Source: Synechocystis sp. PCC 6803 substr. PCC-P (lineage in GTDB: Bacteria > Cyanobacteriota > Cyanobacteriia > Cyanobacteriales > Microcystaceae). From it: a DNA stretch of 32,000 bases. Location: assembly GCF_000284455.1 (NCBI RefSeq), contig NC_017039.1, positions 2,970,001 through 3,002,000 on the forward strand, in the 5' to 3' direction. Made by a program: the position numbers and the translations under genes. The number at the start of each line of letters is the position of its first letter. Within the stretch, counting starts at the first letter, position 1. The notes under the pieces were generated by a model. The model was given only the letters and a program-made list of their open reading frames with translations, ran no database searches and was not told the origin of the DNA. Below, in pieces: positions 1,096-11,394 of this stretch.

Positions 1096-3531
1096 ATGAA
1101 AGCAATTTTTGCCCTCCGCCAAGCAGTGGCGTCCCAACTAAAAAAGTCCACTGCCTCTAGCCATCCTCTCCCCAGGACCACGGCCTCCACTTCCCAAGAT
1201 GAAACCATTTGGCAAAAAATCCACCGCTCCAGGTTTGTACGCATTGCCCACCCACCAGTGATGTTGGGTATTACAGTGGTGTCCCTCACCGGGGTAGTGG
1301 GTTACCGTTTCTATAACCAGCCCCAGCTCAGCGTTGGCACCGAATCTCCCTACACCATTTACGCCCCGGAAGATGGCAGTTTTGTGGACGAAAGAACCAC
1401 AGAGGAAAAGCGGAAGGAAGTGCGGGCCGGTACCATTCCCCGCCTACAAAGGGATAACGAGTTAACCGCCCAACTCAAACAAGAAAGAAGTCAATATCTG
1501 GATGCCATCAACCAGCTCCGCTACCTAGCCGGTACCTTTCCCTACATAGACACCAAGATTTTTACCCTGGAGCAGCAACATTTACTCCGTAGTCTGGGGC
1601 CAGGGGAATGGCAACAATTGGAAGATTATATTAGCTATGGCCAGCCACTGCCCATGGCTTCACCCCAGTTGGCCAAACTGCAACAGTTATTTGATCAACA
1701 AAAAGCCACCACTTCCCCTGAGACCATGGCGGGCTTACTCACCAGCATCAGGACCGCCCAGGATAGATATGGTCGGGTGACGGCTCGCTTGGCGGAGGTT
1801 AAGGCCGATCGCCAGATTACCAATAACCAGATCGGGGCATTGAAGTTAGACGGGCCCACCTGGCAAACTACCCAACAGACCATTATCCAAGTCCATGACC
1901 GCATTCTCACCCAGGGCCTACCGGCGGGCATCACTGCTCCTCTGTTGGGGGAAACGGTACAACTCCATTTGCGCAACATTTTGCCCCCCCAGGCCCACCA
2001 AGTGGCGGAGAATAGCTTAAATAATTTACTCAAGGATAAATATAATCTGACTGTTGACAAGGAAGCCACCAAAAACTTGGCGGAAAAAGCGGTACTGGCC
2101 ATGGAAAACGTCAAAGTATCCGCCGAGAAAAACAGTGTGATTGTGCGGGCGGGGGAAGTCATTACCCAAGAGCAATTTGTTTTGTTGGACGGTTATGGCC
2201 TGAGTCAGCGCCAGGTGAACTGGCAAGGCCTGTTGCGGACAGCGGGGTTGGTGGGGGGCGCTTTAATTATTTTCTGTGGAGTAAGTCGGCGTATCCATCG
2301 GCCCCTACGGCGGCGGGACCATATTCTCCTCTGTTTGCTCAGCGTTAGCACTCCAGTCTTATTTTTGCTTGACCCGGTCTATAACAACCTGCCGGCCATC
2401 AGTTTGCTCACCAGTAGCTTTTATGGCCCCACCCTGGCCATCACCCAAGTGGTATTGGTGGGGGGATTGTCCGCCTTTGCCATGGAATCCATTGTTTGGG
2501 AATACTTATTGGGCAGTGCAGCGGCGGCCTTGCTAGCGGGTATGATTGCCAGTAAGCTCCGTTCTCGGGATGAGTTGGCCCTGTTGGGGGTAGGGGTAGG
2601 GGCCACCCAGGGCATAGTTTATTTATTCACATATTTAATTGTTAACGCCTCAGCGGTCACAATTATTTGGTACACTGCTCTGCCCAGTGCCATTGTCTAT
2701 GGCCTACTCGGTTTGGCTTGGAGTGCCATGGCGATCGGGGTTTCCCCTTACCTAGAAAGATTGTTCGACGTGGTGACCCCCACCAGGTTGGTGGAATTGA
2801 GCAATCCCAACTGCCCCCTGCTACAAAGGTTGGCCAAAGAAGCCCCTGGTACTTTCCAGCACACCCTATTTGTGGCCTGTTTAGCTGAATCGGCGGCCAG
2901 GGAATTGCGCTGTAACGTTGAACTGGTGAGAACCGGAACTTTGTACCATGACATTGGCAAAATGCACGACCCCTTAGGATTCATTGAAAATCAGATGGGG
3001 GGCCCTAATAAACACGATGAAATCAATGATCCCTACGTCAGTGTGGACATTATCAAAAAACACGTTTCCGAAGGGTTGGTGATGGCCCGACGTTACGGTT
3101 TACCGCAGGTGGTGCGGGACTTTATTCCTGAACATCAGGGACAAATGTTGATTTCCTATTTTTATATCCAAGCCAAGGAAGCGGCGGAAAGGGCGGGGGA
3201 ACCGCCAGTTAATGAAGAGGAATTCCGTTACACCGGTCCCATTCCCCAGTCTCGGGAAACCGGCATTGTGATGCTGGCGGACAGTTGTGAGGCGGCGTTG
3301 CGTTCCCTCAGAGAAGCCAATCCAGAAACCGCCATGGCCATGGTTAACCGTATTTTTAAGGCCCGCTGGCGAGATAACCAATTGCAGGATAGTGGCTTGA
3401 AATACGAAGAATTGCCCATTATTGCCGATGTTTTCGTACGGGTGTGGCAACAGTTCCATCACCAACGGATTGCCTACCCCAAGGCGGCCTTAGATGTGCA
3501 GGTAACTAGTCCTTCCACCACCAGATTTTAG
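1096..3531 (+). CDS. 7TM receptor with intracellular HD-domain hydrolase (PgpH/YqfF-like, 811 aa)
   Basis: N-terminal membrane anchor (PPVMLGITVVSLTGVVGY), then a long soluble Q-rich region and a block of multiple hydrophobic helices (aa ~385-560). The C-terminal HD domain has FQH...LYHDIGK and downstream EHQG/ADSCEA motifs. This architecture matches the 7TMR-HD family. Confidence 0.85.
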   Translation: MKAIFALRQAVASQLKKSTASSHPLPRTTASTSQDETIWQKIHRSRFVRIAHPPVMLGITVVSLTGVVGYRFYNQPQLSVGTESPYTIYAPEDGSFVDERTTEEKRKEVRAGTIPRLQRDNELTAQLKQERSQYLDAINQLRYLAGTFPYIDTKIFTLEQQHLLRSLGPGEWQQLEDYISYGQPLPMASPQLAKLQQLFDQQKATTSPETMAGLLTSIRTAQDRYGRVTARLAEVKADRQITNNQIGALKLDGPTWQTTQQTIIQVHDRILTQGLPAGITAPLLGETVQLHLRNILPPQAHQVAENSLNNLLKDKYNLTVDKEATKNLAEKAVLAMENVKVSAEKNSVIVRAGEVITQEQFVLLDGYGLSQRQVNWQGLLRTAGLVGGALIIFCGVSRRIHRPLRRRDHILLCLLSVSTPVLFLLDPVYNNLPAISLLTSSFYGPTLAITQVVLVGGLSAFAMESIVWEYLLGSAAAALLAGMIASKLRSRDELALLGVGVGATQGIVYLFTYLIVNASAVTIIWYTALPSAIVYGLLGLAWSAMAIGVSPYLERLFDVVTPTRLVELSNPNCPLLQRLAKEAPGTFQHTLFVACLAESAARELRCNVELVRTGTLYHDIGKMHDPLGFIENQMGGPNKHDEINDPYVSVDIIKKHVSEGLVMARRYGLPQVVRDFIPEHQGQMLISYFYIQAKEAAERAGEPPVNEEEFRYTGPIPQSRETGIVMLADSCEAALRSLREANPETAMAMVNRIFKARWRDNQLQDSGLKYEELPIIADVFVRVWQQFHHQRIAYPKAALDVQVTSPSTTRF

Positions 3532-5990: not shown

Positions 5991-6335
5991 CGTTGGCTAA
6001 AAATCTAGGCAATTAAACTACTCTACTTTCATTATCCTGCGTACCAGTAACGTTAAATCTATACATAAAACTTAACATTCTGCTGGCATCGCTATGGAAA
6101 CCCTGACCGTAGCCGAGGTGAAATCTCCCCAGCTCTAAAAATAAACTTATAATTTACAAGTTTTTATAGTCTTTTTGAGTTACTATGATTTCGAAACTTA
6201 TGAATGATTATGCGAATTAGCCCGGGATGTGGATTTGGCAGGATTTTTCCTTCAGCTTCTCTGGTAAGTTACAAAGAACTATTTTTGATGCTAACAATAG
6301 CCTCAATCACCTAGCCCTGACACCCAATTAGTACA

Positions 6336-7724
6336 ATGTCTGATTCGTCTCTGAAACAAGCCCTATTGAATCTTCCACCAATGGCCTATGAGGCTGACAT
6401 AGTAGGGCGTCTGGTTATTCCCGAAATGATGGCTAAGTGGAACTTTTCCTATTCAGATGGCGAAATCGTACAACAATATAAAGTTGGAAATGGCTTACAA
6501 TTCGTTGATGTTGCAGGTAGAAAAAATTACGGCGATGATATCTTTTCCCACACACTGAATGGGGCAGAAATAATTGTTGAAATTAAACGTAACACAATAG
6601 ACTTAAGTTCAGATAGTAAGAACTATCTGGCGGCGGTTGCCCAATTGAAAAGATATTTGGACCCCAGCGCAGCTAATTGCGAAAAAGTAAAGTGGGGAGT
6701 AATCACGAACGGGAAGCATATTCAGCTTTTTCGTCGCCACGGTAGAACGGTTTATCCTTTCACAACTAACATTGAGTTAACCCCAGATAATATCGATGAA
6801 GCAGTTGGTCTAATTGGTAAATATATGGAAAGTGACCACCGAGCTTTAAAGATTGCTTTATACAATAATAAGGGCGGGGTCGGAAAAACTACAACAGCTA
6901 TTAATTTAGCGGCAACTCTTTGCATTCCTAAGCCTGAAGGTTATGCAAAAAGGGTTTTATTAGTTGATTTTGATCCAAATCAAAAAGATTTGACTGATTT
7001 ACTCAAAATAAAACCAAGCAGAATAAGATTGTCTCAATATCTTGAAGACGTTAAGAACAATAAATCCAACAAGCAAGGTATTATTTCCAAATATGAAATT
7101 AAACTAAAAAACTCGAAAGTTTATAACTGCTTTGATGTTATTCCCGCTGATGAAAGTTTTTTGGGTAAATCTTCCCATGAATTGATGAAAGTTAAAAAAG
7201 GTAGTTTACGGGAAACCCTTTCTCAATTTGCCGATGATTACGATTATATTCTGATTGATGCTCCACCGGGGGATAATTACTTTACCCAAGAGGCAATTAC
7301 TGCCGCTGATGTCATTTTAATGCCTTCAAAACATAACAGTATTAGCTCTTTTAAAAATGCCGCAATGGCCATGAAACAAATTTTGCCCCAACTAGGTAGT
7401 GAAAGAAGGGCATTTAATCCGGAATTAGCAGATCCAACACCATTACCAATCTTTTTCAATGGTGAAAATATAACGGATGCATCAAGGAAACAAGCTGAAC
7501 AGGCAATTCAGGAAATAATTGAAACAGTTAAATTGGAAGACCAAATTGATTTAACCAGTTTTTTCTTCCCTAAGTTAACAGATGCCCAAGAAGATAAAGC
7601 AATTTTTACAATTCCTAATTATGCCTATATTTCATCTATAGCATTTTCCTATCGTCCGGCTGTGTTTACCAGCAAAGTTGCTCGTGGTCATTACAAACTA
7701 TTAATCGAGGAATACTTTATCTAA
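6336..7724 (+). CDS. Fusion protein: N-terminal PD-(D/E)xK / HsdR-N-like nuclease-fold domain + C-terminal ParA/MinD-family deviant Walker A ATPase (462 aa)
   Basis: aa 1-170 follow the pattern of the type I restriction R-subunit N-terminal domain: EADIVGRLVIPEMM, FVD58V, IIVE82IK84R, AQLKRYL and WGVITNGKHIQLF. aa 171-462 are ParA-like, with KIALYNNK179GGVGK184TTTAINLA (deviant Walker A), LLVDFDPNQ (A') and YILID308APPG (Walker B). The gene lies in the AT-rich insert. Confidence 0.85.
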   Translation: MSDSSLKQALLNLPPMAYEADIVGRLVIPEMMAKWNFSYSDGEIVQQYKVGNGLQFVDVAGRKNYGDDIFSHTLNGAEIIVEIKRNTIDLSSDSKNYLAAVAQLKRYLDPSAANCEKVKWGVITNGKHIQLFRRHGRTVYPFTTNIELTPDNIDEAVGLIGKYMESDHRALKIALYNNKGGVGKTTTAINLAATLCIPKPEGYAKRVLLVDFDPNQKDLTDLLKIKPSRIRLSQYLEDVKNNKSNKQGIISKYEIKLKNSKVYNCFDVIPADESFLGKSSHELMKVKKGSLRETLSQFADDYDYILIDAPPGDNYFTQEAITAADVILMPSKHNSISSFKNAAMAMKQILPQLGSERRAFNPELADPTPLPIFFNGENITDASRKQAEQAIQEIIETVKLEDQIDLTSFFFPKLTDAQEDKAIFTIPNYAYISSIAFSYRPAVFTSKVARGHYKLLIEEYFI

Positions 7725-8428
7725 TGAAACAAGAAATTGGCGCTCTACTGCATCTTCACGTTGACGAAATTGAACCACTCTTTGCAACAAAATCACATCA
7801 GTTTTTAGTCGCCAAAGCAGCTGAATCAATTAATCTTTGTGGTGGAAGAAATTGGATTCCTTTAGTTGTTAAACAAACGGGAGAAAGTAGTTTTGTCGCT
7901 GTTGCTAATATCTTCACTTTGGCGGCAGTAAGACAAGCAGGGCTTACAAAAATTTGGTGTATCGTTGCCGATGATGATCAGTTTGTACAACAATCTTCCC
8001 AACTTTTAAGCAAGGAAATTGTGCCCAAAGTAAACTTAACAACGGCAACTAGAGATGAAATTAAACTTGCCCTTGACTATTTAATTAATCGTTCGGTTAA
8101 TCCTTTATCTGGAGTAAAAGTTGCTACTTCACTGGATAAAATATCTAATGCTGAACGTAAATATTGGCAAGAAAGTCTCAAGGATGTTGTTGCTCTTAAA
8201 TGTGGTATAACCAATGGCAAAAAATTAGATATATTCAAGGAAATTTTCTATGTTACTCCTGAACCTCGTCTAATTTCTGATGATGATTTGGGGAAATCAG
8301 GGAATGACTTGAAAAAATTAAGTGTGACTGGACTCAGAAAAATTGCTAAAGAGAGAGGACACTCCGGTTATTCCAAGATGAAAAAAGCTGAACTGCTAAT
8401 TTTATTAGCTGATACTGAGGAATCATAG
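7724..8428 (+). CDS. ParB/Srx-fold-like protein (degenerate, no GxxR box) with C-terminal Rho_N/SAP-like helix-extended-helix (234 aa)
   Basis: The start ATG overlaps the upstream TAA stop (TAATG at 7722-7726). The N-terminal VDEIEP...GGRNWIPLVV...FVAVANIFTLAAVRQAGLTKIWCIV follows the ParB N-domain pattern, but ANIFT occupies the place of G-x-x-R. The C-terminal LKKLSVTGLRKIAKERGHSGYSKMKKAELLILL resembles Rho_N. Confidence 0.7.
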   Translation: MKQEIGALLHLHVDEIEPLFATKSHQFLVAKAAESINLCGGRNWIPLVVKQTGESSFVAVANIFTLAAVRQAGLTKIWCIVADDDQFVQQSSQLLSKEIVPKVNLTTATRDEIKLALDYLINRSVNPLSGVKVATSLDKISNAERKYWQESLKDVVALKCGITNGKKLDIFKEIFYVTPEPRLISDDDLGKSGNDLKKLSVTGLRKIAKERGHSGYSKMKKAELLILLADTEES

Positions 8429-8486
8429 CTGACTAATAGATTATAAGGCAATTTTACTATCCATATTCTTGGGAGTAACTCTCAGC

Positions 8487-8795
8487 TTATTCTAGTACTT
8501 GGAGTTGTGATTGATCACGGTGCATCAACTCCACTAAACCCGACCAAACCATAAAGTCTGCTTCATCGTTCAAAATTCCGCGGAAAAATTGCTCATAGAA
8601 TAACTCCGACGACATTTGATATTTTTTTTCAAACTCATCTAGTTCAATTCTCAAATTCAAAATCCCCCGTTGCAGTTCTTGAATCTGGTAATTAATAACA
8701 CTTTGGGCGAATCTTTCATTATCAATGCCACTGCTGAGAATAGTCTTAAGTTTTTGTTCCGTATCTGGTTGTAACGAGAGTTTTATGTCTAGCAT
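8487..8795 (-). CDS. Small helical hypothetical protein (102 aa), antitoxin-like flavour
   Basis: AT-rich ORF convergent with the ParB-like gene and 41 nt downstream of the amidohydrolase gene on the same strand. The segment FEKKYQMSSELFYEQFFRGILNDEADFMVW resembles small cyanobacterial proteins I recall seeing next to toxin genes. No partner toxin is present here. Confidence 0.5.
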   Translation of the reverse strand: MLDIKLSLQPDTEQKLKTILSSGIDNERFAQSVINYQIQELQRGILNLRIELDEFEKKYQMSSELFYEQFFRGILNDEADFMVWSGLVELMHRDQSQLQVLE

Positions 8796-8836
8796 ATTTC
8801 TTTAATTGTTAGAGGTTAATTTGATATTTTAAGTCG

Positions 8837-10057
8837 TTAAATTGCGATATTTTGCCAATATTGCCAGGCAGCATAGCTGAGGGTGACAACCCCCGTTAAA
8901 ATTGCTGCTTCATCGGCTTCAAAGCGAGGATGGTGCAAAGGATGATTCATCTGGCGATCGCCAAAACCAGTACCTAAACGAAACATAGCTCCAGGGGCGT
9001 GTTCTAGGTATAGAGCAAAATCTTCTGCCCCTAGGGATGGTTCAGGAATAATTTGCAGGGCTGATTCTCCCCAGGCTTCCCGCACTGCATTTTCTAACAA
9101 CTTATTTAACTGGGCATCGTTCTGTACCGAAGGTACTCCCCGACGGTAATTGACTTCATATTTCGCCCCATAGGTTTGGCAAACGTTGGCCACAATCCCC
9201 TCAATCCATTGGGGCAGTTGGGCATGGGTTTCGGGATGGAGAGATCGCACTGTGCCGGCCATGCGGACTTGGTCGGCAATCACGTTGGGAGCCCGGCCAC
9301 CGCTAATTTGCCCCAGGGAAAGCACCATGGGCCGGAGGGGATTTTGGGTGCGACTGATGGCTTGTTGCAAAGCAGTAATTACTTGGGCCGCAATCCAAAT
9401 GGCGTCGATCGCTTCGTGGGGCCTAGCACCATGCCCCGATTCCCCTTGGATAAAAATTTCCAGATCATCCGCCGCCGCTGTCAACGCACCGTAACGAATG
9501 CCCACCTGCTGGGCCGGAATAGAAGGAAAAACATGAACGCCTAAAATATGGCTGACCCCCTTCATGGCCCCATCTTGGATCATCCAACTGGCCCCCTGGG
9601 CAATTTCCTCCGCTGGTTGAAATAAAAAGCGCACATCCCCCGGTAACCTATGCCCCATTTGGGACAACACCATGGCCGTACCCAAACCCAAAGTGGTGTG
9701 GATATCGTGGCCACAGGCGTGCATCACCCCCGGATGGCGGGAAGCAAAGGGCAAACTCACCATTTCTTCGATGGGTAACGCATCCATATCGGTACGGATG
9801 GCCAACAGCCGCGGATCGTCTCCTTTGCCGGACAACTGCCCCACCACCCCCGTTTTCCCGATCGCCTCTTCGACATGGAGGCCACAGGAGGACAACACCC
9901 CCGCCACATAGGCCGCCGTTTGATATTCTTGGCCGCTCAACTCGGGATGGGCATGGAGATGGCGACGGATTTCCACCAGCCGGGGCAATAGGGTTTGGGC
10001 TAAATTTTTTAGCTCCACCAGGGCAGCATCGGTGTGTTGGGAAGCAGAGGATAGCAA
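8837..10057 (-). CDS. M20D-family amidohydrolase (N-acyl-L-amino acid amidohydrolase / hippurate hydrolase-like, 406 aa)
   Basis: LHAHPELSGQEYQTAAYV near the N-terminus, then MHACGHD and FQPAEE metal-ligand motifs typical of M20D peptidases. Confidence 0.9.
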   Translation of the reverse strand: MLSSASQHTDAALVELKNLAQTLLPRLVEIRRHLHAHPELSGQEYQTAAYVAGVLSSCGLHVEEAIGKTGVVGQLSGKGDDPRLLAIRTDMDALPIEEMVSLPFASRHPGVMHACGHDIHTTLGLGTAMVLSQMGHRLPGDVRFLFQPAEEIAQGASWMIQDGAMKGVSHILGVHVFPSIPAQQVGIRYGALTAAADDLEIFIQGESGHGARPHEAIDAIWIAAQVITALQQAISRTQNPLRPMVLSLGQISGGRAPNVIADQVRMAGTVRSLHPETHAQLPQWIEGIVANVCQTYGAKYEVNYRRGVPSVQNDAQLNKLLENAVREAWGESALQIIPEPSLGAEDFALYLEHAPGAMFRLGTGFGDRQMNHPLHHPRFEADEAAILTGVVTLSYAAWQYWQNIAI

Positions 10058-10116
10058 AGTGGCAAAGGGAAAATGTTAGTGGTGCTTTTTAGTGTAGAAC
10101 ACGGCATTGGGGGAAG

Positions 10117-11394
10117 TTAACCAAGGTCGTCGTTTCCCATGGAGTTCCTCCCCGCAGTGAGTAAATAAATCGGATTGAGGGGATCAAAGCGGGTCAGTTC
10201 GGCAAATTTAACGCTCTGGCTAATTTGCACCTGTTGCACTTTCACCTGCCATTGTTGTTGTTTAAACCAGCCCAGGGCTAAGCTCAAATGCTCCAAACTG
10301 GCGATCGCCATCACCACCAAACCATTTATCGCTAAACGTTCCCCGCAAGTCTGCAAAATAGAGGTTAATTGCCCACCGTTACCACCAATGAAAACTCGGT
10401 TAGGAGTAGGTAAATTGGCTAAAACTTCCGGGGCAGAGCCGGCCACTACCTCGACGTTTTGCAGTTGAAATCGTTGGCAATTTTGTTCGATTAACCGTTG
10501 ACCAGCGCTAGTTTTTTCAATGGCAAAAACTTTTCCCTGGGGACACAACCGGGCACCCTCGATCGCCACTGACCCGGTACCGGCCCCAATGTCCCAAATA
10601 ATTTGTCGGGGTTGCAAGGATAAAGCGGCTAAAATTTGCACCCGGATAGGCTGTTTGGTAATCATGCCAGGGCGATCGTCAAAGCTAGCAAAGTGATGAT
10701 CGGCGATGCCCAAAATGGGTAACTGATCCAGATCAATTAGGGGATTTTCTGGCTTTTGTTTAACTAGCACCACTACATTGAGGGGGGAAAAATCCGTTGC
10801 GGTTAGGGATGCTAAAGATGGCAAATCAAAGGCTTGAATCTGTTCATTTGTTGCCGCTAAGTTTTCACAAACCCAAGCTTGGTAAGTGGTGGTCAACCCC
10901 AAAGATAAACATAAATTGGCGATCGCCCCTGGATGATTTTGCCCATCGGTGAGAATGGCTAATTTTTTTGCTCCTTTTTGCAGGGCTTGTATGAGCAACT
11001 CGTTGGATCTTCCGTGGGCACTGATGATGGTGGCATCCTGCCAGGGCATTTTTAAACGATTAAAGGCTAGCTGAATGGAACTCAAATGGGGATGAAATTT
11101 TAATTGTTCCGGGGAAAATTTTTCCAGTAATAACCGTCCCAAGCCAAAGTACAGGGGATCACCGGAAGCTAAAACAACAATAGTTTCGTGTGACTTTAAA
11201 GTCTGATGAAACTGCTTGATTTTCTTTAAATCTGCTGAAAAATCCTTGATGACTAAACTTTTTTTGCCGTACTGCGGGAAGTAACTCAAATGGCGATCGC
11301 CGCCGGCCAATATTTTTGCTTGGGCAATTAATTCTAGTGTTGAACTAGTTAACCCTTCGGCACCATTCAGGCCAATGCCCACCACATGGATCAT
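10117..11394 (-). CDS. cobL: Precorrin-6Y C5,15-methyltransferase (decarboxylating), CbiE/CbiT fusion (425 aa)
   Basis: The N-terminal tetrapyrrole methylase fold starts MIHVVGIGLNG, with ...LASGDPLYFG. The C-terminal SAM methyltransferase has the motif IWDIGAGTGSVAIE. Confidence 0.9.
   Translation of the reverse strand: MIHVVGIGLNGAEGLTSSTLELIAQAKILAGGDRHLSYFPQYGKKSLVIKDFSADLKKIKQFHQTLKSHETIVVLASGDPLYFGLGRLLLEKFSPEQLKFHPHLSSIQLAFNRLKMPWQDATIISAHGRSNELLIQALQKGAKKLAILTDGQNHPGAIANLCLSLGLTTTYQAWVCENLAATNEQIQAFDLPSLASLTATDFSPLNVVVLVKQKPENPLIDLDQLPILGIADHHFASFDDRPGMITKQPIRVQILAALSLQPRQIIWDIGAGTGSVAIEGARLCPQGKVFAIEKTSAGQRLIEQNCQRFQLQNVEVVAGSAPEVLANLPTPNRVFIGGNGGQLTSILQTCGERLAINGLVVMAIASLEHLSLALGWFKQQQWQVKVQQVQISQSVKFAELTRFDPLNPIYLLTAGRNSMGNDDLG

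What the first reader, a model, noticed from the sequence alone, without database searches (positions are those of the whole stretch)
6336..7724. PD-(D/E)xK (HsdR-N-like) nuclease-fold domain fused in one polypeptide to a ParA/MinD deviant Walker ATPase
The first ~170 aa carry the ordered pattern of the type I restriction R-subunit N-terminal domain: E..IV...VIP, then D58, E82-x-K84, QLKRY and ITNGKHIQLF. The remainder is an intact ParA with K179GGVGK184T, an A' motif DFDPNQ and a Walker B ILID308APPG.

Classical ParA proteins carry at most a small HTH extension. A restriction-endonuclease-fold head on a DNA-binding, dimerising ATPase suggests ATP-gated DNA recognition or cleavage rather than segregation. 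The putative catalytic D/E/K positions appear to be retained.
Basis: partly seen in the sequence, partly recalled or inferred. Interest (0 to 1): 0.8.

Follow-up and report, generated by a model that had tools for sequence, protein, structure and literature searches.

The report
Nuclease-headed ParA ATPase with ParB-like partner
Synechocystis gene slr0105 really does fuse a restriction-enzyme-type DNA-cutting domain, with its catalytic residues intact, to a complete ParA DNA-positioning ATPase; with its partner slr0106 it forms an unstudied two-gene module found in hundreds of cyanobacterial genomes and on plasmids.

Summary
ORF 6336-7724 (+) is slr0105 of Synechocystis sp. PCC 6803, 462 aa. 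Residues 1-168 form an HsdR_N/MmeI_N-type PD-(D/E)xK domain. Its D58, E82-x-K84 and Q103xxxY107 positions are conserved, even in homologues detectable only at E 1e-4. Residues 169-462 are a complete Soj/ParA-type deviant Walker ATPase.

The gene overlaps slr0106 (7724-8428) by one base. slr0106 is a weak ParB_N-like protein with a SAP/Rho_N tail and lies directly downstream in 78 of 80 related loci. Nothing else is conserved around the pair.

The pair sits in a low-GC islet, is syntenic in PCC 6714 and is under purifying selection (dN/dS about 0.09). It also occurs on cyanobacterial plasmids. This N-domain subfamily exists almost only as a ParA fusion. Rare variants add HEPN or SF1-helicase heads.

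I found no publication on it. Best reading (0.45): an ATP-gated, partner-controlled nuclease module of mobile-element origin that acts on DNA. A plasmid-partition role with a non-cutting head remains a serious rival (0.3). Three sibling plasmids in one Nostoc strain each carry a different version of the module, and a 12.6-kb plasmid has it as its only par-like locus.

It is a new variant of a known kind. Interest 0.65.

The parts
6336..7724 (+). slr0105: 462-aa fusion protein (PD-(D/E)xK head plus ParA ATPase), stop codon included
   Evidence: ORF and translation. Exact match to BAA10637.1 slr0105. Residues 5-19 are conserved across the family, so the start at 6336 is right. The same N-terminus is readable upstream of the annotated start in PCC 6714.
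6336..6839 (+). N-terminal HsdR_N/MmeI_N-type PD-(D/E)xK domain (aa 1-168)
   Evidence: Pfam HSDR_N_2 in 32/33 members, HSDR_N in 15, MmeI_N in 8. AF2 pLDDT 95.1. Foldseek finds BpuSI 3s1s at E 4.6e-4, then HsdR structures.
6507..6587 (+). Catalytic-type residues D58 (6507-6509), E82 (6579-6581), K84 (6585-6587)
   Evidence: Invariant in 39 homologues. Retained in almost all distant representatives. They lie on strands beta2 (55-61) and beta3 (79-83) of the model.
6642..6656 (+). Q103-x-x-x-Y107 motif in the helix after beta3 (QLKRY), the RecB/HsdR-type nuclease motif
   Evidence: Q103 is invariant and Y107 is at least 90% conserved. The helix spans 95-107. That QxxxY is an HsdR/RecB nuclease motif is from my own knowledge.
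6840..7721 (+). ParA/Soj-type deviant Walker ATPase domain (aa 169-462)
   Evidence: Pfam AAA_31 E 1.8e-28, CbiA, MipZ. Foldseek finds Soj 1wcv at E 4.8e-13, plus ParA 8ray and McdA 6nop.
6870..6890 (+). Deviant Walker A K179-GGVG-K184-T185 (signature lysine K179)
   Evidence: Invariant. KGG[VI]GKT follows the N-domain in nearly all full-length representatives.
6966..6983 (+). Walker A' D211-F-D213-P-N-Q
   Evidence: D211, F212, D213 and Q216 are invariant.
7248..7271 (+). Walker B I305-L-I-D308-A-P-P-G
   Evidence: I307, D308, P310 and P311 are invariant.
7724..8428 (+). slr0106: 234-aa partner protein; its start overlaps the slr0105 stop by one base (TAATG)
   Evidence: ORF. Junction sequence. 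Exact match to BAA10638.1 slr0106. A homologue lies directly downstream in 78/80 loci, with a 4-nt overlap in 52 loci and a 1-nt overlap in 7.
7841..8008 (+). Weak ParB_N-like region of slr0106 (about aa 40-95; RNW-P-VVK...W-C-I), without the GxxR arginine patch
   Evidence: ParB_N is below threshold but hits 39/40 partners (best 1.2e-4). It matches profile positions 42-90 at 15-25 bits against a cut-off of 26.3. Consensus GNSF stands where ParB has GERR (the ParB motif is from my own knowledge).
8306..8398 (+). C-terminal Rho_N/SAP-type helix-extended-helix DNA-binding motif of slr0106 (aa 195-225)
   Evidence: Pfam Rho_N E 1.5e-5, above its cut-off. Rho_N hits 40/40 partners and SAP hits 22/40.
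5991..6335 (.). Upstream intergenic region shared with divergent raf1 (sll0102); unusually conserved
   Evidence: 86% identical to PCC 6714, although synonymous divergence of the flanking genes is 0.44-0.89. No iterated repeats were found.
5991..8836 (.). Low-GC islet holding slr0105, slr0106 and a 102-aa ORF
   Evidence: GC is 0.32-0.41 here against about 0.48-0.58 in the flanks. PCC 6714 has the same islet at 0.34-0.37 against 0.50-0.53.

Best explanation
Slr0105 and Slr0106 form a self-contained, horizontally mobile, two-protein DNA-acting module built on the ParA/ParB plan, with a working nuclease head on the ATPase.

Proposed cycle:
1. The ParA domain binds ATP and forms the usual sandwich dimer through the signature lysine K179. 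This is inferred from the intact, invariant motifs.
2. The dimer binds DNA non-specifically. This is inferred from the family.
3. Each ParA domain carries a rigidly packed HsdR/MmeI-type PD-(D/E)xK domain. Dimerisation on DNA therefore brings two nuclease active sites (D58/E82/K84 plus QxxxY) together, and DNA nicking or cutting becomes ATP-gated. This is inferred.
4. Slr0106 is made by translational coupling. It binds DNA through its SAP/Rho_N tail and ParB_N-like body. It contacts the ATPase, probably through its invariant N-terminal peptide (M1, G6, L8). It either triggers ATP hydrolysis, switching the nuclease off on marked or self DNA, or recruits the nuclease to marked DNA. This is inferred.

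The biological role is most likely a contest over DNA, meaning exclusion of foreign DNA or enforcement of mobile-element maintenance, rather than housekeeping chromosome segregation.

Shown here:
- the domain identities;
- conservation of the catalytic and ATPase motifs;
- the obligatory gene pair;
- mobility of the module;
- purifying selection on both domains;
- expression of both proteins, from the literature.

Not shown: any enzymatic activity, any target or any phenotype.
For: Domains and motifs:
- Domain identities are established.
- D58, E82, K84, Q103 and N125, together with K179, K184, D211, D213 and D308, are invariant in 39 homologues.
- D/ExK/N125 and the Walker motifs are retained in almost all representatives, down to those detectable only at E 1e-4, and in the plasmid sister clade at about 27% identity.
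- The full-length model has pTM 0.90, so the two domains pack in a fixed way.
- An exhaustive profile search of 1.84 billion cluster representatives finds only 151 proteins with this N-domain. Nearly every full-length one carries KGGVGKT right after it, so the head has co-evolved with ParA.

Gene pair and mobility:
- The partner gene lies directly downstream in 78/80 loci, usually with overlapping stop and start codons.
- No other neighbour is conserved.
- The module sits in a low-GC islet.
- Its genomic positions vary, and its neighbours include some integrases, PIN and XisI genes.

Variants:
- Some keep the partner but add a HEPN_Swt1 RNase head, or an SF1 helicase with or without a DUF559 endonuclease. 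Such architectures are typical of conflict systems.

Selection and expression:
- The chromosomal copy is syntenic in PCC 6714, with dN/dS 0.09 for slr0105 (both domains) and 0.12 for slr0106. It is therefore maintained without any plasmid to segregate.
- Both genes rise 4-8-fold in a lexA-disrupted mutant (PMC4759255).
- Both proteins are seen in proteomes (PMC4877387, PMC4526308, PMC12454622).
Against: - No activity has been measured.
- The module is not embedded in recognisable defence islands, and neither protein matches any PADLOC model significantly.
- The N-domain has no relatives in phage genomes.
- The layout of parA followed by a small DNA-binding gene is exactly that of a partition operon.
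- The module occurs on plasmids next to a small tyrosine recombinase.
- Two Nostoc plasmids have backbones 96% identical but modules only 53-58% identical, and a third sibling carries a sister-clade version. That is the classical signature of partition and incompatibility determinants.
- On a 12.6-kb Pseudanabaena plasmid a sister-clade version is the only par-like locus. It lies 411 bp upstream of an array of 8-bp GTAACRG iterons.
- A nuclease riding on a nucleoid-coating ATPase would be dangerous to the host, and no immunity mechanism such as a methylase is apparent.
- In the two helicase-fused variants the aligned D/E/K positions are not kept.
Confidence: 0.45

Rival explanations
1. It is a plasmid-type (type I) partition system. 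The PD-(D/E)xK head is the DNA-binding or regulatory N-terminal domain of the ParA, analogous to the HTH head of type Ia ParA/SopA. Slr0106 is the centromere-binding protein. Chromosomal copies are domesticated or selfishly retained plasmid or integrated-element systems. Cleavage is absent, or limited to a specialised nick.
For: - The operon has the parA then parB-like plan with translational coupling.
- ParB_N-like and SAP/Rho_N domains are present in the partner.
- The module is on Nostoc, Acaryochloris, Leptolyngbya and Pseudanabaena plasmids.
- Three sibling Nostoc plasmids each carry a different version. For two of them ParM is 96% identical while the module is 53-58% identical.
- It is the only par-like locus on a 12.6-kb CyRepA1 plasmid, with GTAACRG iteron clusters just downstream.
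- Foldseek also aligns the full model to type Ia P1 ParA and V. cholerae ParA2.
Against: - A purely DNA-binding head would not keep D, ExK and QxxxY invariant across the whole family and the sister clade.
- No centromere-like repeats lie next to the module in the window, and none occur consistently in 78 loci.
- Most copies are on chromosomal contigs at unrelated positions.
- The Synechocystis copy has been kept under purifying selection at a fixed chromosomal site.
- Nostoc plasmids p4 and p9 already carry ParM, and p9 also a small ParA.
- HEPN and helicase fusions are not expected for segregation.
- The partner lacks the ParB GxxR patch and scores below the ParB_N cut-off.
Confidence: 0.3
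2. It is a toxin-antitoxin-like addiction pair. Slr0105 is a nuclease toxin whose activity depends on ATP-driven dimerisation. Slr0106 is its neutralising partner. The pair persists because losing it is harmful.
For: - It is a tight two-gene module with overlapping genes.
- It is mobile, lies in a low-GC islet and occurs on plasmids.
- The partner evolves faster than the enzyme: 80% against 87% identity, and dN/dS 0.12 against 0.09.
- PIN genes are among its neighbours.
Against: - The proteins are far larger and more elaborate than typical type II pairs.
- The putative toxin gene comes first.
- The partner has DNA-binding domains rather than a simple inhibitor fold.
- Nothing shows that Slr0105 is toxic.
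Confidence: 0.1
3. It is a domesticated host factor that organises or regulates the nucleoid or gene expression, for instance as part of the Synechocystis LexA regulon. The ParA domain would position or load the complex, and the head would be used for DNA processing.
For: - The locus is stable and syntenic in two Synechocystis species under purifying selection.
- The upstream non-coding region is unusually conserved, at 86%.
- Both genes are co-regulated in the lexA mutant and in several stress or engineering proteomes.
- There is a cyanobacterial precedent: a plasmid ParMR system repurposed as a cytoskeleton (bioRxiv 10.1101/2025.06.27.661541, listed).
Against: - The distribution is patchy and the genomic positions vary.
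- The module is carried on plasmids.
- No phenotype has been reported.
Confidence: 0.1
4. It is an artefact: a chance ORF, a mis-assembled fusion of two genes, or a decayed pseudogene.
For: None found.
Against: - The same architecture recurs in at least 120 clusters and 457 genome stretches.
- The exact protein is deposited from several PCC 6803 genomes.
- dN/dS is 0.09.
- The protein is detected by proteomics.
Confidence: 0.01

Closest known systems
Soj / chromosomal and type Ib plasmid ParA ATPases (T. thermophilus Soj 1wcv/2bek, H. pylori Soj 6iub, ParA 8ray)
   Same: Residues 169-462 have the same fold (Foldseek E about 1e-13, TM to target 0.74-0.78). They carry the deviant Walker A with signature lysine, A' and B motifs. 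A small DNA-binding partner gene lies downstream.
   Different: - A 168-aa PD-(D/E)xK domain sits in front.
- The protein does not reach any curated NCBIfam partition model (ParA_partition 68.5 bits against a cut-off of 180).
- The partner is not a canonical ParB.
- No parS-like repeats were found.
Type Ia ParA (P1 ParA 3ez2, F SopA, V. cholerae ParA2 7npe)
   Same: These are long ParAs whose N-terminal extension contacts DNA. The full model aligns over 340-370 columns.
   Different: Their extension is a helical/HTH regulatory domain (from my own knowledge). Here it is a restriction-endonuclease fold with a catalytic triad. The high rmsd (12-14 A) shows that the heads do not superpose.
Nuclease domains of type I HsdR (EcoR124I 2w00, V. 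vulnificus 3h1t) and type IIG MmeI/BpuSI (3s1s); Pfam HSDR_N_2, HSDR_N, MmeI_N
   Same: The fold, the D...ExK triad and the QxxxY helix motif match. The most distant sequence hits of the N-domain profile are Eco57I/MmeI-type enzymes.
   Different: The motor attached is a dimerising ParA rather than an SF2 translocase or a methyltransferase/TRD module. No hsdM/hsdS or methylase is nearby.
McdA/McdB carboxysome positioning system of cyanobacteria (Cyanothece McdA 6nop)
   Same: It is a cyanobacterial ParA-family ATPase with a downstream partner. The fold matches at E 4e-12. In this window the gene lies next to the Rubisco chaperone raf1.
   Different: - Synechocystis McdAB are other genes (MYO_127120/127130; PMC7182216).
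- McdA has no nuclease head.
- McdB is disordered or coiled-coil with a C-terminal tryptophan, whereas Slr0106 ends ...LLADTEES and has ParB_N-like and SAP domains.
- The raf1 adjacency is not conserved outside Synechocystis.
CTP-independent ParB-like centromere binders (e.g. ParT of Streptomyces SCP2; PMC12260392) and ParB/Srx-fold proteins
   Same: Slr0106 has a ParB_N-like core and lacks the arginine patch needed for CTP binding. It is encoded after a ParA.
   Different: The similarity is below threshold. The C-terminal Rho_N/SAP motif is not a usual ParB feature. No centromere is known. I took only the title and abstract of that paper.
Dimerising ATPase-plus-nuclease defence systems (OLD family, Gabija GajA, PARIS AriAB, Septu PtuAB)
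   Same: The logic is shared: an ATPase that dimerises controls a nuclease (an analogy from my own knowledge).
   Different: Those ATPases are of the ABC type and their nucleases are Toprim or HNH. No sequence similarity was detected (PADLOC). No defence phenotype is known here.

Membership tests
ParA/MinD (deviant Walker A) ATPase superfamily | Deviant Walker A KGGxGK[ST] with N-terminal signature lysine | tested here: met
   K179-GGVG-K184-T185 is invariant in 39 homologues.
ParA/MinD (deviant Walker A) ATPase superfamily | Walker A' (DxD) and Walker B aspartate | tested here: met
   D211, D213 and D308 are invariant. They are kept in nearly all distant representatives.
ParA/MinD (deviant Walker A) ATPase superfamily | Soj/MinD fold | tested here: met
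   Pfam AAA_31 E 1.8e-28. Foldseek to Soj, ParA, McdA and MinD gives E 5e-13 to 1e-9 at probability 1.00.
ParA/MinD (deviant Walker A) ATPase superfamily | ATP-dependent dimerisation and surface (DNA) binding | not testable with these tools
   This needs biochemistry or a multimer model; only single chains could be modelled.
PD-(D/E)xK nucleases of the HsdR_N / MmeI_N type | alpha-beta-beta-beta-alpha-beta core fold | tested here: met
   The model has H19-34, E44-49, E56-61, E79-83, H95-107 and E120-124. Top Foldseek hits are BpuSI, REase-domain proteins and HsdR.
PD-(D/E)xK nucleases of the HsdR_N / MmeI_N type | Acidic residue on beta2 and (D/E)xK on beta3 | tested here: met
   D58, E82 and K84 are invariant. 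They are retained in 38 or more of 44 distant representatives.
PD-(D/E)xK nucleases of the HsdR_N / MmeI_N type | QxxxY motif in the following helix (RecB/HsdR type) | tested here: met
   Q103 is invariant and Y107 is at least 90% conserved. That this motif defines the type is from my own knowledge.
PD-(D/E)xK nucleases of the HsdR_N / MmeI_N type | Score above the Pfam gathering cut-off for HSDR_N_2 | tested here: inconclusive
   The window protein scores 22 bits against a cut-off of 25. Other members pass: PF13588 is precomputed for many homologues, and the best E-value is 4.9e-8.
PD-(D/E)xK nucleases of the HsdR_N / MmeI_N type | Metal-dependent DNA cleavage | not testable with these tools
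   This needs an enzyme assay.
Type I restriction enzyme HsdR subunit | SF2 helicase/translocase motor and hsdM/hsdS partners | tested here: not met
   Slr0105 has no helicase domain. The only conserved neighbour is slr0106, and there are no methylase or specificity genes among 139 neighbours.
ParABS partition system | ParB with the CTPase fold (GxxR box) and score above the ParB_N cut-off | tested here: not met
   ParB_N scores 15-25 bits against a cut-off of 26.3. GNSF stands in place of the arginine patch. The profile finds no PDB ParB at E up to 10.
ParABS partition system | Centromere-like repeats next to the operon | tested here: inconclusive
   There are none in the window, and none occur consistently in 78 loci. 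An iteron array lies downstream of a sister-clade module on a 12.6-kb plasmid.
ParABS partition system | Located on a low-copy replicon it could segregate, or near oriC | tested here: inconclusive
   It is on several cyanobacterial plasmids. Most copies are at unrelated chromosomal sites.
McdAB carboxysome positioning | McdB-type partner (disordered or coiled-coil, C-terminal Trp), and being the organism's assigned McdAB | tested here: not met
   The partner has ParB_N-like and Rho_N domains and no terminal Trp. Synechocystis McdAB are MYO_127120/30 (PMC7182216).
Known anti-phage defence systems (PADLOC-DB 2.0) | Significant match of either protein to a defence-system model | tested here: not met
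   The best hit is E 3.8e-4 and covers only the Walker A region. The N-domain and the partner have no hits.

The most novel reading that the evidence does not exclude
Cyanobacteria carry a previously unrecognised class of DNA-conflict system built from partition machinery. A nucleoid- or DNA-bound ParA dimer serves as an ATP-gated clamp for two restriction-type nuclease domains. A ParB-like/SAP protein tells it which DNA to spare or to cut. The system would exclude foreign plasmids or phage DNA, or eliminate competing replicons.
Probability: 0.3. Interest if true: 0.85.

Novelty: new variant of a known kind. Interest (0 to 1): 0.65.

Why it matters
ParA/MinD ATPases are known as positioning machines: they move or place cargo and do not act chemically on DNA. 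A conserved family in which the ParA carries a restriction-type nuclease head with every catalytic motif intact would add a new output to this switch, namely ATP- and partner-gated DNA cutting. It would link the partition and restriction/defence toolkits.

The family is large, with 457 stretches in species-representative genomes, almost all cyanobacterial among those inspected. It has a defined partner. It sits in the best genetic model of the phylum as slr0105/slr0106, so it is directly testable with knock-outs and point mutants.

If instead it proves to be a true partition system, it would be the first in which the ATPase needs a nuclease-fold head. It would also be relevant to the poorly understood maintenance of cyanobacterial plasmids and the vectors built from them.

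Tried and rejected
- **Sequence search of PDB.** Searching with the N-domain alone and as a profile gave nothing useful. Only the fold comparison worked.
- **McdA hypothesis.** This was prompted by the raf1 neighbour and is rejected. Synechocystis McdAB are other genes, the partner is unlike McdB, and the adjacency is not conserved.
- **Slr0110 mix-up.** I first suspected the gene might be slr0110, 'central regulator of carbohydrate metabolism' (MCP 2014). This is rejected. The exact look-up shows the genes are slr0105 and slr0106, and slr0111 is a 173-aa protein elsewhere. That paper itself was not held.
- **LexA box.** The motif TTTTG(A/T)TNAC proposed in PMC4759255 is absent from the slr0105 upstream region and is not enriched in the window. 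The lexA effect may be indirect.
- **Centromere search.** No iterons lie next to the module in the window, and none occur consistently in 78 loci; most repeated 8-mers were HIP1-like GCGATCGC. AAACTTAW occurs three times in 6068-6201, but this is compatible with AT-rich composition, and only two of the three copies are conserved in PCC 6714.
- **Defence-island test.** The 139 immediate neighbours show no enrichment of PADLOC families.
- **Phage genomes.** There are no relatives of the N-domain.
- **tRNA and Rfam.** No tRNA flanks the islet and there are no Rfam matches.
- **Promoter and terminator scans.** Uninformative.
- **Literature.** Searches for a nuclease-ParA fusion, HSDR_N with ParA, and cyanobacterial plasmid partition found no description of this family. 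Large surveys of ParB-fold proteins and of conflict systems do not mention it in the passages retrieved.
Full report
**What is there**

The window is chromosomal DNA of Synechocystis sp. PCC 6803. The ORF at 6336-7724 (+) translates to 462 aa. It is identical to slr0105 (BAA10637.1), which NCBI names only 'ParA family protein'. One base after its last sense codon the next gene begins: slr0106 (7724-8428, 234 aa). The junction reads TAATG, so the stop and start codons overlap.

Upstream and divergent lie raf1 (sll0102, Rubisco accumulation factor) and a vWA protein. Downstream on the other strand lie a 102-aa ORF, an M20 amidohydrolase and a precorrin methylase.

GC content falls to 0.32-0.41 between about 5990 and 8840, against about 0.48-0.58 on both sides. 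The pair and the 102-aa ORF therefore sit in a compositionally foreign islet. No tRNA flanks it and there is no Rfam match.

**The ParA half**

- Residues 172-337 match Pfam AAA_31 (E 1.8e-28), CbiA and MipZ.
- An AlphaFold model built on 39 homologues has pLDDT 89.3 and pTM 0.90.
- Foldseek places it with T. thermophilus Soj, ParA-ATP, H. pylori Soj, Cyanothece McdA and MinD at E 5e-13 to 1e-9.
- The deviant Walker A K179GGVGK184T, the A' motif D211-F-D213-PNQ and the Walker B ILID308 are invariant among 39 homologues sharing 42-87% identity with the window protein.
- The protein reaches no curated NCBIfam equivalog. ParA_partition scores 68.5 bits against a cut-off of 180.

**The head**

- Taken alone, the first 170 residues score just under the Pfam cut-off for HSDR_N_2 (22 bits against 25; E 1.8e-4), with faint NucS_C and MmeI_N hits.
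- At family level the assignment is firm. Of 33 N-domains, 32 hit HSDR_N_2 (best 4.9e-8), 15 hit HSDR_N and 8 hit MmeI_N.
- A separate model of residues 1-168 has pLDDT 95.1. Its core runs helix 19-34, strands 44-49, 56-61 and 79-83, helix 95-107, strand 120-124.
- The best PDB match is the type IIG enzyme BpuSI (3s1s; E 4.6e-4, probability 1.00, TM 0.58 over 179 columns). Restriction-endonuclease-domain proteins and the HsdR subunits of V. vulnificus and EcoR124I follow.
- D58 lies on the second strand and E82-x-K84 on the third. Q103xxxY107 lies in the next helix. I know QxxxY as the RecB/HsdR nuclease motif.
- D58, E82, K84, Q103, T124 and N125 are invariant in the 39-sequence alignment, and Y107 is at least 90% conserved.
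- Sequence-only searches of PDB found nothing.

**How far the fusion extends**

A word-indexed search returned at least 120 full-length clusters of 444-492 aa. The names they carry are almost all cyanobacterial. A scan of one genome per GTDB species found 457 stretches encoding a relative. The 80 best are cyanobacterial, apart from two MAG contigs labelled otherwise.

An exhaustive HMMER search of 1.84 billion cluster representatives with the N-domain profile found only 151 proteins at E up to 1e-3. Nearly every full-length one carries KGG[VI]GKT immediately after the N-domain. This head subfamily therefore exists essentially only as a ParA fusion. The weakest hits outside the fusion are Eco57I/MmeI-type type IIG enzymes.

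In 44 diverse representatives, including those detectable only at E 1e-10 to 1e-4, D58, E82, K84 and N125 and the Walker residues are kept almost without exception.

**The partner**

A homologue of slr0106 lies directly downstream in 78 of 80 loci. The overlap is 4 nt in 52 loci and 1 nt in 7. Clustering all ORFs of the 80 loci shows that these two genes are the only conserved ones. The next most frequent cluster occurs in 6 loci.

All 40 partners examined have a C-terminal Rho_N motif, and 22 also hit SAP. In 39 of 40 there is a sub-threshold ParB_N match (best 1.2e-4). It covers profile positions 42-90 at 15-25 bits against a cut-off of 26.3.

The consensus ...RNWvPvIVKe..eD.YeVIGNSFiyAvAeeAGLekVWCII... 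resembles the ParB N-domain core. It has GNSF where ParB has its GERR arginine patch (the ParB motif is from my own knowledge). The N-terminal peptide (M1, G6, L8 invariant) is conserved and is a candidate ATPase-contact element. A profile search of PDB sequences gave no significant hit.

**Mobility and selection**

The immediate neighbours of the module in 72-73 loci are mostly unrelated housekeeping genes. Among 139 neighbours there are 5 phage-type integrases, 4 PIN proteins and 2 XisI proteins. PADLOC families are not enriched. Neither protein matches a PADLOC model convincingly.

In Synechocystis PCC 6714 the module lies at exactly the same site, including the 102-aa ORF.

| Gene | Amino-acid identity, 6803 vs 6714 | dN/dS |
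|---|---|---|
| slr0105 | 87.5% | 0.091 (head 0.086, ParA 0.094) |
| slr0106 | 79.9% | 0.123 |
| vWA, Raf1 and M20 neighbours | 93-96% | 0.06-0.07 |

The chromosomal copy is thus a maintained, functional gene pair that evolves somewhat faster than its neighbours. The 345-bp upstream intergenic region is 86% identical between the two strains. That is more than expected from synonymous divergences of 0.44-0.89, so it probably holds functional non-coding elements.

**Plasmids**

tblastn against PLSDB finds full-length homologues on two Nostoc sp. UHCC 0870 plasmids of 35.7 and 55.1 kb. Each is followed by a 'Rho termination factor N-terminal domain-containing protein' and lies next to a 183-aa tyrosine recombinase. 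Both plasmids also carry ParM/StbA, and one carries a small ParA as well.

Their backbones are nearly identical: ParM is 96.2% and the integrase 95.6% identical. The long ParA is only 52.9% identical and the partner 58.3%.

A more distant sister clade has about 27% identity, the same N-domain by HMM (E 1e-11 to 1e-32), and D, ExK and N retained. It occurs with a partner-like gene on the following plasmids:

- a third sibling plasmid of the same Nostoc strain;
- Acaryochloris marina pREB8;
- a Leptolyngbya boryana plasmid;
- two Pseudanabaena plasmids.

On the 12.6-kb Pseudanabaena plasmid ABRG53g the annotated genes are a CyRepA1 replication protein, small hypothetical proteins and this pair. 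Starting 411 bp downstream of the partner gene, five clusters of 8-bp GTAACRG iterons fill positions 411-713. This array could be a centromere or the replication origin.

**Variant architectures**

Three representatives carry extra N-terminal modules in front of the head-ParA unit:

- HEPN_Swt1 (668 aa);
- an SF1 helicase, AAA_11/AAA_12 (1268 aa);
- DUF559 endonuclease plus SF1 helicase (1065 aa).

In the two loci inspected, a homologous partner gene still follows (hhalign probability 100 and 98.5). In the two helicase variants the aligned D/E/K positions are not kept.

**Literature**

I found no paper on this fusion or on slr0105/slr0106 function. The incidental data are:

- Both genes are induced in a lexA-disrupted mutant: slr0105 by 8.2- and 6.1-fold and slr0106 by 5.6- and 4.1-fold. 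No binding test was done on this promoter (PMC4759255). The LexA motif proposed there is absent upstream of slr0105.
- Slr0105 protein rises in Deg-protease mutants (PMC4877387).
- Slr0106 rises more than 8-fold in a lactate-producing strain and in a dacA mutant (PMC4526308, PMC12454622).

Both proteins are therefore expressed. The 'Slr0110' regulator paper concerns a different gene.

**Interpretation**

Shown:

- a real, conserved fusion of a catalytically equipped HsdR/MmeI-type nuclease fold with a complete ParA;
- an obligatory ParB_N-like/SAP partner;
- horizontal mobility, with both plasmid and chromosomal residence;
- purifying selection on both domains.

Inferred:

- ATP-driven ParA dimerisation on DNA pairs and gates the nuclease heads;
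- Slr0106, bound to DNA, switches or directs the ATPase.

I put this mechanism at 0.45, with a DNA-conflict role (exclusion, defence or enforcement of mobile-element maintenance). The grounds are as follows:

- The catalytic motifs are kept across very deep divergence, including in the plasmid sister clade.
- The head exists only with ParA.
- HEPN and helicase variants exist.
- Chromosomal copies are retained where there is nothing to segregate.

The main rival (0.3) is a genuine plasmid-type partition system whose head serves DNA binding or a specialised nick. Its best support is the set of three sibling Nostoc plasmids, each with a different version, and the 12.6-kb plasmid where this is the only par-like locus. 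Addiction-module and domesticated-regulator readings take most of the remainder.

The protein is not an HsdR, because it has no helicase and no hsdM/S genes nearby. It is not McdA, not a canonical ParABS system and not a member of any PADLOC system.

**Verdict**

Its preference for cleavage over segregation is plausible but untested. It overlooked both the partner gene and the plasmid evidence. This is a new variant of a known kind, in a model organism and readily testable. Interest 0.65.

Noticed in passing
window 8487-8795 (- strand): A 102-aa ORF lies in the same low-GC islet. It is conserved at the same place in PCC 6714 (86% aa identity, dN/dS 0.14), so it is a real gene. It is absent from the other 80 loci and has no Pfam family (only a faint SF1-HH hit).
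   Followed up: partly
window 5991-6335: The intergenic region between raf1 and slr0105 is 86% identical between PCC 6803 and PCC 6714, with runs of 20-45 identical bases. That is more conserved than synonymous sites of the flanking genes (dS 0.44-0.89). It may hold promoters, operators or a small RNA. AAACTTAW occurs three times in 6068-6201.
   Followed up: partly
L090:411-713 (Pseudanabaena sp. ABRG5-3 plasmid NZ_AP017567.1): Five clusters of two or three 8-bp GTAACRG iterons, in both orientations, lie 411-713 bp downstream of the partner gene of a sister-clade long-ParA module. The plasmid is 12.6 kb and has a CyRepA1 replicon. The array is a candidate centromere or replication-origin iterons.
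   Followed up: partly
L081 and L082 (Nostoc sp. UHCC 0870 plasmids NZ_CP091922, NZ_CP091917); L089 (NZ_CP091923): These are sibling plasmids with ParM 96% and integrase 95.6% identical, yet their long-ParA/partner modules are only 53% and 58% identical. The modules sit on opposite sides of the integrase. A third sibling carries a sister-clade version. L081 also has five copies of CTAGACACCA at 7176-7289.
   Followed up: partly
L091:5956-6000 (Synechocystis PCC 6714 contig): The PCC 6714 homologue is annotated as 447 aa starting at the equivalent of M16. The upstream 45 bases encode MSDSSLKQALSNLPP, matching the family-wide conserved N-terminus, so the annotated start is probably too short.
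   Followed up: yes
proteins P0137 and P0146 (representative search): Two full-length family members have glutamine in place of the signature lysine K179 of the deviant Walker A, while keeping K184/T185 and the nuclease triad.
   Followed up: no
L083:3932-5905 and 9376-10530; L092:4736-5146: Some variant loci are flanked by conflict-type genes. These are a Schlafen/AlbA_2-HATPase_c_4 protein and a Fic protein around the HEPN-fused version, and a DUF559/MTES_1575 endonuclease and two DUF29 genes upstream of the Synechocystis LKSZ1 copy, whose partner is 306 aa.
   Followed up: no
window 1096-3531 (+): This is slr0104, an 811-aa HD-family phosphohydrolase. Papers found in a locus-tag search discuss it in connection with c-di-AMP; one of them concerns c-di-AMP homeostasis. 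It is unrelated to the finding.
   Followed up: no
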